A stretch of 64,000 bases of DNA from NCBI GenBank assembly GCA_030295235.1, contig AP026132.1, positions 372,001-436,000 on the forward strand. The letters run 5' to 3'. This document shows, piece by piece, positions 35,436 to 36,208 of this stretch (position 1 is its first letter; each line of letters begins with the position of its first letter). This stretch comes from Fistulifera solaris (Eukaryota). The notes under the pieces were generated by a model. That model worked only from the letters and a program-made list of their open reading frames with translations. It did not search any database and had not been told where the DNA came from. The position numbers were made by a program, and so were the translations under genes.

Positions 35436-36208
35436 CTACAAATCTTTTGGGACTCTATCGCGTCCAATATAGAGTGCTGCAAAGAACAAAGACCACAGCA
35501 CCAGAGTGACGCTTTGTTGCTGTGACAAGAGCGCAAAAAGGCTGCCGGAATTCCGCATAGAAACGCTGTTTGCACGTTCATAGCGTTGACTTTTCGTAAA
35601 ATGGCCCGTGCCGTCTCGGGGTTCTCGATCTTGGATAAACCGTTGCCATCGATATCCCACAAACCGGCTTGGGCAATGTTTCATAAAGCCGTTTCGGCAC
35701 TTCGCTGGTATCCGTAAGCAAGAAAGAAAGGAATGACCGTCAGGAATCGGAACACATGTCCCGCAAAACTACCATCATCCCCTAGAAAAGTAGCCCATAA
35801 GGTATACAGCACCGCCACGAAGTACATGACACGACTCGCTTGTGAGCGACGCTCTCGTTCATCCGGGCCAATGTTGACAAGTTCCAGCGTAGCTTGTGCT
35901 TTTCGCTGTTCCGCTTCCTCAGCCGATACTGTAACGTACGCATCGAATGCAATCGGTCCATATTTGATAGTTTTCCCCGGTTCTATACCGATGGCCGTCA
36001 AATACGGAGCCATCCAGGCAAAGCTGCCGTCATTAACAAACTCGCCTGATGTTTCATTGACCGGTGGCAACCGCGCTGGTCCTGCCCGATGATGATTTTT
36101 GTGCTTCTTCTTGCCGTGCAACATGGAATGACGGCTAAAAGAGGCGTGCGGTACAAATGCTGCCACCGTTGTCGCGAGGACGGTCATCGCACACAGCTGA
36201 AACCTCAT
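35436..36208 (-). CDS. Putative plastid-targeted membrane selenoprotein (MSP-like) with in-frame TGA
   Basis: Signal peptide plus AAF-VP motif, VNIGPDERERR, two transmembrane segments, then SAETAL-TGA(35681-35683)-NIAQAGLWDIDGNG in the same frame. A +1 T at 35535-35539 restores a hydrophobic C-terminus ending RVPKDL*. Confidence 0.75.

What the first reader, a model, noticed from the sequence alone, without database searches (positions are those of the whole stretch)
35436..36208. Hidden selenoprotein: in-frame UGA in a plastid-targeted membrane protein
Seen: the 175-aa ORF 'stops' at TGA 35681-35683, but the same frame continues GCT TTA TGA AAC ATT GCC CAA GCC GGT TTG TGG GAT (A-L-*-N-I-A-Q-A-G-L-W-D) into protein-like sequence and further transmembrane segments, about 257 aa after one homopolymer fix. 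There is no GT donor next to the TGA. Known: diatoms have large selenoproteomes, and an algal/protist 'membrane selenoprotein' (MSP) family of unknown function exists. From memory, the NIGP.ER.RR motif and the U/C after the transmembrane segments resemble it and its bacterial Cys homologues. Inference: UGA encodes Sec. The signal peptide + AAF-VP presequence implies a nucleus-encoded selenoprotein imported into the complex plastid, which standard gene callers would truncate.
Basis: partly seen in the sequence, partly recalled or inferred. Interest (0 to 1): 0.85.

Follow-up and report, generated by a model that had tools for sequence, protein, structure and literature searches.

The report
Plastid-targeted membrane selenoprotein gene, miscalled as truncated
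The "stop" in this diatom-type gene is almost certainly a selenocysteine codon in a widespread algal plastid membrane protein family that gene callers routinely cut short at that codon.

Summary
On the minus strand an ORF starts at 36208 and meets TGA at 35683-35681 (codon 176), and the frame stays open beyond it. That TGA is very probably a selenocysteine (Sec) codon.

- In 78 related metagenome loci the homologous codon could be read in 61: TGA in 59, TGC in 2.
- Other homologues carry Cys at the site.
- The 47 residues after the TGA are 64% identical to a Cys homologue.
- In relatives, substitutions after the TGA are mostly synonymous or conservative until the true stop.
- Of the 150 best database representatives, at least 103 end exactly before this site, so they look like truncated gene calls.

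All 4 public runs laid on the window show six T where the window has five (35539-35535). With six T the gene encodes 257 aa and ends at TAG 35438-35436.

Relatives carry SECIS stem-loops 36-296 nt after their stops. In the window I found only candidates, the best around 34996-34888, so the window's own SECIS is unresolved.

The protein has a signal peptide followed by Phe, four long hydrophobic (membrane-type) helices and no Pfam family or known fold. Membership in the published MSP family could not be tested, and one stated MSP feature (two Sec) is not met. No bacterial relatives were found.

The parts
35436..36208 (-). Whole coding sequence of the selenoprotein gene: 257 codons once the T run is read as six T. 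No intron is needed.
36155..36208 (-). Signal peptide ending in A-A-F (MRFQLCAMTVLATTVAAF|VP). Phe after the cleavage region is the ASAFAP-type mark of import into complex plastids.
   Evidence: Read. The same arrangement is seen in 23 of 24 homologue N-termini read by eye. Motif as stated in the abstract of PMC4329603 (listing).
35846..35875 (-). N-I-G-P-D-E-R-E-R-R, the conserved charged motif just before hydrophobic helix 1 (N112, I113, E117, R118, R120, R121 invariant in alignment A2).
35702..35830 (-). Hydrophobic helices 1 and 2 with the conserved loop D-D-G-x-x-x-G-H-x-x-R between them.
   Evidence: Alignments. Model of homologue P0010: helices 122-150 and 155-180, pLDDT 97-98.
35681..35683 (-). 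In-frame TGA, codon 176, read as selenocysteine.
   Evidence: present in an independent contig; TGA in 59 and TGC in 2 of 61 readable loci; Cys homologues
35621..35656 (-). D-I-D-G-N-G-L-S-K-I-E-N, an EF-hand/dockerin-like loop nine residues after Sec. A calcium site is inferred only.
   Evidence: Conserved W-D-V-D-G-x-G. Weak profile hit to dockerin 4uyq_B, E 0.82.
35535..35539 (-). Run of five T that is six T in all 4 public runs. This is an error or private variant of the window, and it shifts the frame of the last 32 codons.
   Evidence: table 4 (extra base behind 35534 in all contigs)
35436..35438 (-). True stop codon TAG.
34888..34996 (-). Best SECIS candidate region, 449 nt after the stop and antisense to the end of the PPR gene. 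It holds tandem AUGA-AUGA-C. With the first AUGA and GA 34919 it gives helix I of 8 bp, an internal loop with AUGA/GA, and helix II of 7+ bp. Not established.
   Evidence: evidence against table 3
35255..35325 (-). Second, weaker SECIS candidate: GCUGAAUGAU, 119 nt after the stop. No convincing helix II.

Best explanation
This is an intact nuclear gene (minus strand, 36208..35436) for a 257-residue membrane protein of a diatom-type alga. Codon 176 (UGA) is recoded to selenocysteine by the eukaryotic Sec machinery, directed by a SECIS stem-loop in the 3' untranslated region.

Shown: the UGA, the conserved translated sequence after it, the Sec/Cys alternation across the family, and SECIS elements in relatives.

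Inferred:
- The window's own SECIS lies in its 3' region; the best guess is 34996-34888.
- The protein enters the complex plastid through its signal peptide plus Phe motif.
- It folds as four long hydrophobic helices.
- Its single Sec sits just after helix 2, on the same face as the E-R-x-R-R motif and a calcium-loop-like D-x-D-G-x-G segment.
- There it most likely acts as the nucleophile of a thiol/selenol redox or chalcogen-transfer reaction, recycled by a glutathione/glutaredoxin-type partner.

I hold the recoding at about 0.85 and the biochemical role at about 0.25.
For: 1. Site. TGA at 35683-35681 is present in the window and in an independent contig. No intron joint crosses it.
2. Family, DNA level. 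Of 78 metagenome loci the site is readable in 61: TGA in 59, TGC in 2. The scan pattern that covers the site asked for Cys or Trp, so the sampling was not biased towards TGA.
3. Translation continues. The window's next 47 aa are 64% identical to Cys homologue P0010 (E 2e-19), and the shifted tail is 62% identical over 26 aa (E 6e-8). In locus pairs, differences after the TGA look like those before it (L012/L014: 12 synonymous and 3 non-synonymous after, 8 and 1 before) and collapse after the real stop (4 of 60 codons identical).
4. Cys forms. Among the 150 best representatives, 18 have C, 9 W and 1 S at the site. 103 end just before it, and 3 more do so by eye. The Cys form P0146 is from Monoraphidium neglectum, which passages of PMC6627142 name as the exception among TUC-clade green-algal genomes that encode the full Sec machinery.
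5. SECIS in relatives. In 28 loci I picked an [A/G]UGA...GA stem-loop 36-296 nt after the stop. A covariance model built from 10 of them recovered the element just after the stop in 11 loci outside the seed. In 32 non-redundant loci, 12 have a strict hit on the sense strand of the 3' 400 nt, against 1, 2 and 0 in three control regions.
6. Frame repair. Six T in 4 of 4 runs.
7. Protein. The AlphaFold2 model of P0010 has mean pLDDT 85.8, and 94-98 per 10-residue block over residues 91-250. A glutaredoxin domain is fused in front of the family domain in one locus (L026, PF00462, E 2.1e-18).
8. Expression in kin. MMETSP diatom transcriptomes (Tryblionella, Entomoneis) hold the truncated calls.
Against: - No convincing SECIS was found in the window. 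Rfam gave nothing, but it also missed all the clear SECIS elements of the relatives I gave it, so that blank carries no weight. My model R1 found nothing in the window at E <= 10, but it also missed several relatives' elements. A strict pattern scan found nothing near the gene.
- The best candidate (AUGA at 34988, GA at 34919) lies 449 nt after the stop, inside the antisense of the neighbour's coding sequence. Its folding z-score is ordinary (-0.54). One diverged haplotype in run X1 changes its UGA and two paired bases (table 3).
- The Sec machinery of this organism could not be checked: no genome is held and the window has no tRNA.
- Whether the runs marked 'RNA?' are RNA is unknown, so there is no expression evidence for this very gene.
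- The functional reading rests on one fusion locus out of 33 locus ORFs scanned, plus 0 of 14 long representatives, and on sub-threshold likenesses.
Confidence: 0.85

Rival explanations
1. The gene is a decaying copy in this genome. The five-T frameshift is real, there is no working SECIS, and translation ends at the UGA or the product is lost.
For: The window as given has the frameshift. No convincing SECIS was found in the window. A diverged second haplotype exists in the runs.
Against: 4 of 4 public runs read six T, in every contig over the site. Both the stretch after the TGA and the shifted tail remain strongly similar to homologues, with no other stop or shift. My SECIS detection is weak even on true positives.
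Confidence: 0.06
2. UGA is an ordinary stop. The real product is the 175-aa protein, and what follows is untranslated or a separate remnant.
For: Gene callers give 175 aa (P0002) and do the same for at least 103 of the 150 best representatives.
Against: Sequence after the UGA is conserved at the protein level across green algae and stramenopiles, with a coding-type substitution pattern. Cys-codon homologues read straight through. Relatives carry SECIS elements.
Confidence: 0.04
3. The UGA is read through as another residue (Trp or Cys, by near-cognate decoding or a variant code), not as Sec.
For: 9 of the 150 best representatives show W at the site.
Against: None of the 61 readable loci has TGG. 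I take the W to be a gene caller's reading of TGA, which is unverified. The other window ORFs I read show no sign that TGA is a sense codon: the 648-aa PPR ORF is open under the standard code. The alternative residue in the family is Cys, the usual partner of Sec. SECIS elements follow the genes of relatives.
Confidence: 0.03
4. The TGA is a sequencing or assembly error for TGC/TGT.
For: The same window does carry one homopolymer error 145 nt downstream.
Against: An independent contig (X1 record 7) has the same codon. 4 close relatives (69-75% identical) are cut at the same residue. TGA is the rule in the family (59 of 61).
Confidence: 0.02

Closest known systems
MSP, 'membrane selenoprotein' of green algae and Dictyostelium (Lobanov et al. 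2007, PMC2375036; family list of Jiang et al. 2020, PMC7539508)
   Same: - A predicted membrane protein of unknown function, with Sec, in Ostreococcus-type green algae.
- Found almost only in the Sec form (passage of PMC7539508), as here (59 TGA of 61 readable loci).
- The green-algal loci here have the G-UGA core and long mini-stem that PMC2375036 describes for Ostreococcus SECIS elements (section read; loci).
   Different: - PMC2375036 says the protein 'had two Sec residues' and lists it for Dictyostelium, Chlamydomonas, Volvox and Ostreococcus but not for the diatom T. pseudonana.
- Here there is one TGA per ORF (window and 21 loci).
- Most of the 150 best representatives start with a signal peptide and Phe motif, and the named ones are diatoms.
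- The one named chlorophycean member has Cys.
- No named MSP sequence could be reached, so identity is neither shown nor excluded.
YgaP-like transmembrane domain (Pfam PF11127, formerly DUF2892), as in the E. coli thiosulfate sulfurtransferase YgaP
   Same: The order of features matches: a charged [D/E]-R-x-x-[R/Q] motif, a hairpin of two hydrophobic helices, then G-x-C/U-x-x-A just after helix 2. hhalign puts the Cys of YgaP on the Sec/Cys column. PF11127 is the only Pfam family hit by more than one member, and in the matching place.
   Different: Scores are below any threshold: 2 of 34 members, best 13 bits against a cut-off of 25.3; hhalign probability 3.4%, E 0.013. The algal family has an extra N-terminal domain, the D-V-D-G-x-G loop and two more helices. 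Homology is a lead, not a finding.
Ordinary eukaryotic selenoprotein genes with Sec/Cys homologue pairs and a 3'-UTR SECIS (for example SelT, SelK, GPx of algae)
   Same: An in-frame UGA at a position held by Cys in some homologues, conservation across it, a SECIS after the stop in relatives, and truncation by standard gene callers.
   Different: There is no thioredoxin-like fold and no CxxU motif. The protein has a single Sec at the end of a membrane helix, and its fold has no clear match in the PDB (best VIA Z 6.1; Foldseek best E 0.61).

Membership tests
Eukaryotic selenoprotein gene | In-frame UGA at a position where homologues have UGA or a Cys codon | tested here: met
   TGA in 59 and TGC in 2 of the 61 readable loci, out of 78 loci. 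Cys in 6 of the 12 first hits.
Eukaryotic selenoprotein gene | Protein-level conservation and a coding substitution pattern downstream of the UGA | tested here: met
   64% identity over 47 aa, E 2e-19, and 62% over 26 aa. Synonymous-rich differences up to the true stop in 8 locus pairs.
Eukaryotic selenoprotein gene | SECIS element (AUGA...GA kink-turn stem-loop) in the 3' UTR of this gene | tested here: inconclusive
   Candidates at 34996-34888 and 35325-35255 only. Rfam and my model are blind to several true elements. Relatives do have them.
Eukaryotic selenoprotein gene | Sec machinery in the same genome (tRNA-Sec, eEFSec, SBP2, PSTK, SecS, SPS) | not testable with these tools
   No genome is held for the window. 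The window has no tRNA gene.
Eukaryotic selenoprotein gene | Selenium in the protein | not testable with these tools
   Needs 75Se labelling or mass spectrometry.
MSP (membrane selenoprotein, Lobanov 2007) | Sequence similarity to a named MSP member | not testable with these tools
   No hit or 107 carries that name.
MSP (membrane selenoprotein, Lobanov 2007) | Two Sec residues (as stated in PMC2375036, section on Dictyostelium) | tested here: not met
   One in-frame TGA per ORF in the window and in 21 loci. The paper's sentence may apply to the Dictyostelium protein only.
MSP (membrane selenoprotein, Lobanov 2007) | Predicted membrane protein, almost always in the Sec form | tested here: met
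   Four long hydrophobic helices in the model. 59 of 61 loci have TGA.
YgaP-like_TM (PF11127) | Score above Pfam's gathering cut-off | tested here: not met
   2 of 34 members, 11-13 bits against 25.3. The window's protein has no hit at E <= 1.
YgaP-like_TM (PF11127) | Profile-profile similarity to YgaP transmembrane domains | tested here: inconclusive
   hhalign probability 3.4%, E 0.013, with Cys on the Sec/Cys column. The YgaP profile has only 7 sequences.
Nucleus-encoded protein of a complex (red-lineage) plastid | Signal peptide followed by an ASAFAP-type motif with Phe at +1 | tested here: met
   ..TTVAAF|VP in the window. Phe in 23 of 24 N-termini read by eye. No predictor was run and localisation is untested.
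EF-hand / dockerin-type calcium loop | D-x-D/N-x-D/N-G ... hydrophobic ... D/E at position 12 | tested here: inconclusive
   D-I-D-G-N-G-L-S-K-I-E-N in the window; W-D-V-D-G nearly invariant. Only a weak dockerin hit, E 0.82.

The most novel reading that the evidence does not exclude
This is not MSP. It is an uncatalogued, plastid-specific selenoprotein family of algae (diatoms and other stramenopiles, Mamiellales-type green algae). In it a lone selenocysteine at the membrane surface, next to a calcium-binding loop, forms a glutaredoxin-served redox or selenium/sulfur-relay site. The family would be distantly descended from the bacterial YgaP-like transmembrane domain. It would be a selenium-dependent step in plastid membrane biology that every standard annotation has cut in half.
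Probability: 0.3. Interest if true: 0.72.

Novelty: new member of a known kind. Interest (0 to 1): 0.55.

Why it matters
Diatoms and picoplanktonic green algae need selenium, yet most of their selenoproteins are soluble oxidoreductases with known folds. This family places a selenocysteine in a plastid membrane protein with no known fold or function. It is large: 421 representative clusters at E <= 0.001. In public protein sets it is mostly recorded as a half-length hypothetical protein.

Correct models (257 aa here) are needed for plastid proteome predictions, for selenoproteome counts and for any functional work. If the family is not the published MSP, it adds a new selenoprotein family and a testable link between selenium supply and plastid function.

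Tried and rejected
- **Rfam.** Nothing SECIS-like in window 34700-36300 at E <= 10. Rejected as evidence because Rfam found no SECIS in any of the 17 relative loci given, 14 of which carry one of my SECIS picks.
- **Strict AUGA..AA/CC..GA pattern over the whole window.** 96 loose sites, none near the gene.
- **Folding of 3' segments.** z-scores -0.68, -0.54, -0.20, -0.50 and +1.20, none unusual.
- **Covariance model R1.** No window hit at E <= 10.
- **MAFFT alignments of all SECIS picks.** The cores misaligned, so no broader model was built.
- **My PWM-plus-pairing score.** It ranked AUGAC 34984 / GA 34889 second of 2311 UGA sites, but 4 of its 8 pairs are wobbles.
- **Intron idea.** No joint over the TGA, and the alignment is ungapped there.
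- **Expression.** The look-up of sequencing runs listed no holder on record as RNA, and the 'RNA?' runs behave like DNA. So there is no statement on expression of this gene.
- **Pfam on the window protein.** Only chance-level hits.
- **PDB by sequence.** Nothing below E 0.33.
- **PDB by fold.** Foldseek found nothing at E <= 0.001. VIA wide gave best Z 6.1, generic helical bundles. This does not show that the fold is new.
- **ESM Atlas.** Only 'hypothetical protein' clusters of Chlorophyta and Bacillariophyta, scores 0.85-0.86, leads only.
- **Prokaryote genomes.** Two scans, each limited to one motif around the site, found no relative. This does not exclude distant bacterial kin.
- **Names.** None of the three protein searches or two cluster look-ups returned 'membrane selenoprotein'.
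- **Further fusions.** 0 of 31 further locus ORFs and 0 of 14 long representatives have a Pfam domain.
- **Literature.**
  - Searches.
  - None of the 3 papers holding two of the three terms DUF2892 / YgaP / selenocysteine bears on this family.
  - None of the 10 listed papers on plastid-targeted diatom proteins and ASAFind mentions selenoproteins.
  - Two Aureococcus papers were not held.
- **Earlier findings of this scan.** Nothing for this sequence or genome.

Full report
**What is in the window**

On the minus strand an ORF starts at ATG 36208 and runs 175 codons to TGA at 35683..35681. The last 32 codons of the homologous protein (ALLSQQQSVTLVLWSLFFAALYIGRDRVPKDL, then TAG 35438..35436) lie in the next frame, behind a run of five T at 35539..35535.

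I laid the contigs of four public runs on 34900-36500. All four put one more base into that run, in every contig that covers it (depth with the insertion / depth: 11.9/11.9, 23.4/23.4, 17.2/17.2, 2/2). With six T the junction reads I-P-A-A-F-F-A-L-L, the same length as I-P-V-A-A-F-A-L-L in homologue P0010, and the product has 257 residues.

A 1381-base contig of run X1 covers 35478-36500. It has one substitution (36019) and indels at 35534, 36386 and 36409. It is therefore not the window's own assembly, and it carries the same TGA. No contig skips the codon. A second, 5-12% diverged haplotype or relative is also present in three runs.

**Homologues as proteins**

The read-through protein has no Pfam family. 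A word-indexed search found 12 proteins:
- the window's own 175-aa call;
- four close relatives (69-75% identical) that all end at ..S-A-E-T-A/G-L, the residue before the TGA;
- six more distant ones that read ..G-L/V-C-N-I-A-Q.. straight through with Cys;
- one with W.

A profile search of 1.84 billion representatives found 421 at E <= 0.001, 239 at <= 1e-10 and 111 at <= 1e-30. Of the 150 listed, 103 end just before the site by a pattern test, and 3 more do so by eye. A further 18 have C, 9 W and 1 S, and the rest are fragments.

Named members:
- a Cys form from Monoraphidium neglectum, which passages of PMC6627142 name as the exception among green-algal genomes that encode the full Sec machinery;
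- truncated calls from MMETSP transcriptomes of the diatoms Tryblionella compressa and Entomoneis sp..

**Homologues as DNA**

A scan of metagenome contigs returned 78 loci. The homologous codon can be read in 61 of them: TGA in 59 and TGC in 2. The other 17 are weak or partial matches without the motif.

The scan pattern that covers the site demanded Cys or Trp. The TGA loci therefore came in through the other pattern, and the count is not inflated by the way they were found.

After the TGA all loci read N-I/V-A/G-Q-x-G-x-W-D-V-D-G-x-G...K-V-N-x-x-N, followed by hydrophobic helices. In eight locus pairs the differences after the TGA have the same coding character as those before it. For example, L012/L014 show 12 synonymous and 3 non-synonymous differences after the TGA, against 8 and 1 before it. 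Similarity then collapses after the true stop, where 4 of 60 codons are identical. Each ORF holds a single in-frame TGA (21 loci).

**SECIS in relatives**

In 28 loci I picked a stem-loop with an [A/G]UGA core, a GA partner and a helix directly above them, 36-296 nt after the stop.
- The green-algal ones have G-UGA-C, a GC-rich helix, unpaired AA or CC and a long mini-stem. This is the form that PMC2375036 describes for Ostreococcus (section read).
- The diatom-like ones are AU-rich and share G-A-A-U-G-A-C.

Because I chose these by pairing, I ran three checks.
1. The base of helix II covaries in a 10-sequence alignment (CG 6, GC 3, UG 1 at the first pair). This is partly circular.
2. A covariance model built from those 10 recovered the element just after the stop in 11 loci outside the seed.
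3. In 32 non-redundant loci a strict criterion is met by 12 on the sense strand of the 3' 400 nt. The three controls gave 1 (antisense), 2 (coding sense) and 0 (coding antisense).

Rfam found none of these elements in the 17 loci I gave it.

**SECIS in the window: unresolved**

Rfam, model R1 and a strict pattern give nothing. None of the three is sensitive to the diatom-like elements.

Candidate (a) is G-C-U-G-A-A-U-G-A-U at 35322, 119 nt after the stop. It has no proper helix II (best constrained fold -7.8 kcal/mol). It lies in the stretch that the diverged haplotype replaces with unlike sequence.

Candidates (b) and (c) share the tandem A-U-G-A-A-U-G-A-C at 34988-34980, 449 nt after the stop and antisense to the end of the neighbouring PPR gene.
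- With the first AUGA and GA 34919 the region folds into an 8-bp helix I, an internal loop holding AUGA and GA, and a helix II of 7 bp, one mismatch and 2 more bp. The energy is -19.6 kcal/mol, against an unconstrained minimum of -22.9.
- It is one of only 12 of 1141 [A/G]UGA sites in both strands of the window that reach the helix criterion. About 0.06 would be expected in 650 nt.
- The 9-mer occurs twice in 128 kb and is the same 9-mer as at the cores of L003 and L010.
- Against (b): the haplotype in run X1 changes the U of the first AUGA and two paired bases (table 3). Those changes turn the motif into A-C-G-A-A-U-G-A-C-G, as in L004, which would fit the second AUGA as the core.
- For that core I found only a wobble-rich partner.

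I put about even odds on this region.

**The protein**

The N-terminus (MRFQLCAMTVLATTVAAF|VP) is a signal peptide followed by Phe. Of 24 complete N-termini that I read by eye, 23 have Phe at that place and one has Leu. This is the ASAFAP-type mark of proteins imported into complex plastids (abstract of PMC4329603, seen in a search listing). The green-algal forms instead have Ala/Arg/Ser-rich N-termini. I ran no targeting predictor.

An AlphaFold2 model of the Cys homologue P0010, built with 34 aligned sequences, has mean pLDDT 85.8, and 94-98 per 10-residue block over residues 91-250. Its parts in order are:
- a short beta hairpin and a helix;
- the N-I-G-x-x-E-R-x-R-R motif;
- helix 122-150;
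- the conserved loop D-D-G-x-x-x-G-H-x-x-R;
- helices 155-162 and 165-180;
- the Cys/Sec three residues later;
- a short helix and beta turn carrying W-D-V-D-G-x-G;
- two more long helices (204-233 and 237-257).

Sec, the Arg-rich motif and the D-x-D-G-x-G loop thus lie on the same side of the membrane. From the positive charges I infer that this is the stromal side.

The loop has the spacing of an EF-hand or dockerin calcium site, but only a weak hit supports this (4uyq_B, E 0.82). No solved structure matches clearly.

One locus (L026) encodes a glutaredoxin domain (PF00462, E 2.1e-18) in the same ORF in front of the family domain, and another (L043) encodes a SnoaL-like domain. No other domain was found in 31 further locus ORFs or in 14 long representatives. 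From the lone Sec/Cys, its position and the single glutaredoxin fusion I infer a thiol/selenol redox or chalcogen-transfer role, with low confidence.

**Comparison with what is known**

MSP is described only as a predicted membrane selenoprotein of Ostreococcus, Chlamydomonas, Volvox and Dictyostelium. It is said to have two Sec residues, and it is not listed for T. pseudonana (PMC2375036; passages and sections 8 and 11 read). It is described as almost always Sec-containing in algae (PMC7539508, passages).

The present family shares the membrane nature, the Sec preference and the occurrence in Mamiellales-type contigs. It has one Sec and is above all a stramenopile plastid family. The question stays open. 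I put about 35-40% on identity with MSP and about 65% on the family being in some published algal catalogue.

The YgaP-like transmembrane domain shows the same order of motifs, and its Cys aligns with the Sec/Cys column. The scores are sub-threshold. I did not check that note, and it is only a parallel lead. Two motif-limited scans of prokaryote genomes found no relative.

**Verdict**

The Sec reading is well supported by comparative evidence (0.85). The frame repair is confirmed. Plastid targeting is plausible from the motif. The window's SECIS, the organism's Sec machinery, expression of this gene and the biochemical role remain open. I file it as a new member of a known kind: a eukaryotic selenoprotein gene with Cys homologues.

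Noticed in passing
window 35535-35539: The window has five T where all 4 public runs have six. This is an assembly error or private variant that breaks the frame of the last 32 codons.
   Followed up: yes
window 34900-35490 and 35723-35927: Three runs hold a second haplotype or close relative, 5-12% different. 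In it, 35251-35321 (one contig) or 35279-35430 (another) is replaced by unlike sequence of similar length. Run X1 also lacks 8 bases at 36409 and 1 base at 36386 upstream of the gene.
   Followed up: partly
L026:1-909: One metagenome ORF fuses a glutaredoxin domain (CPYC motif, PF00462, E 2.1e-18) in front of this family's domain and its TGA. This hints that the Sec site is served by glutaredoxin/glutathione. It could be an assembly chimera.
   Followed up: partly
L043:2-955: Another ORF of the family has an N-terminal SnoaL-like domain (PF12680, E 5.3e-10).
   Followed up: no
window 36676-37293 (+): The divergent neighbour, 467 nt away, is a PAP_fibrillin protein (E 6.2e-8) with its own signal peptide ending in ..T-S-A-F. 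It too is probably plastid-targeted.
   Followed up: no
window 33343-35289 (+): The convergent neighbour is a 648-aa PPR-repeat protein (PPR_2, E 1.2e-12). Its stop lies only 146 nt from the selenoprotein gene's stop, so the two 3' ends must overlap or abut.
   Followed up: partly
window 35621-35656 (-) and homologues: A D-x-D-G-N-G-x-x-x-I-E-N/D loop directly after the Sec has the spacing of an EF-hand/dockerin calcium site. W-D-V-D-G is nearly invariant in the family.
   Followed up: partly
L001:1-86: A 5S rRNA gene piece (Rfam 53.3 bits) lies just upstream of the closest metagenome homologue, which shows that this contig is genomic DNA.
   Followed up: no
17 of the loci L001-L061, listed: Rfam release 15 found no SECIS, at E <= 10, in any of the 17 loci I gave it, although 14 of them carry one of my SECIS picks. 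Rfam blanks are therefore no evidence against SECIS in algae.
   Followed up: yes
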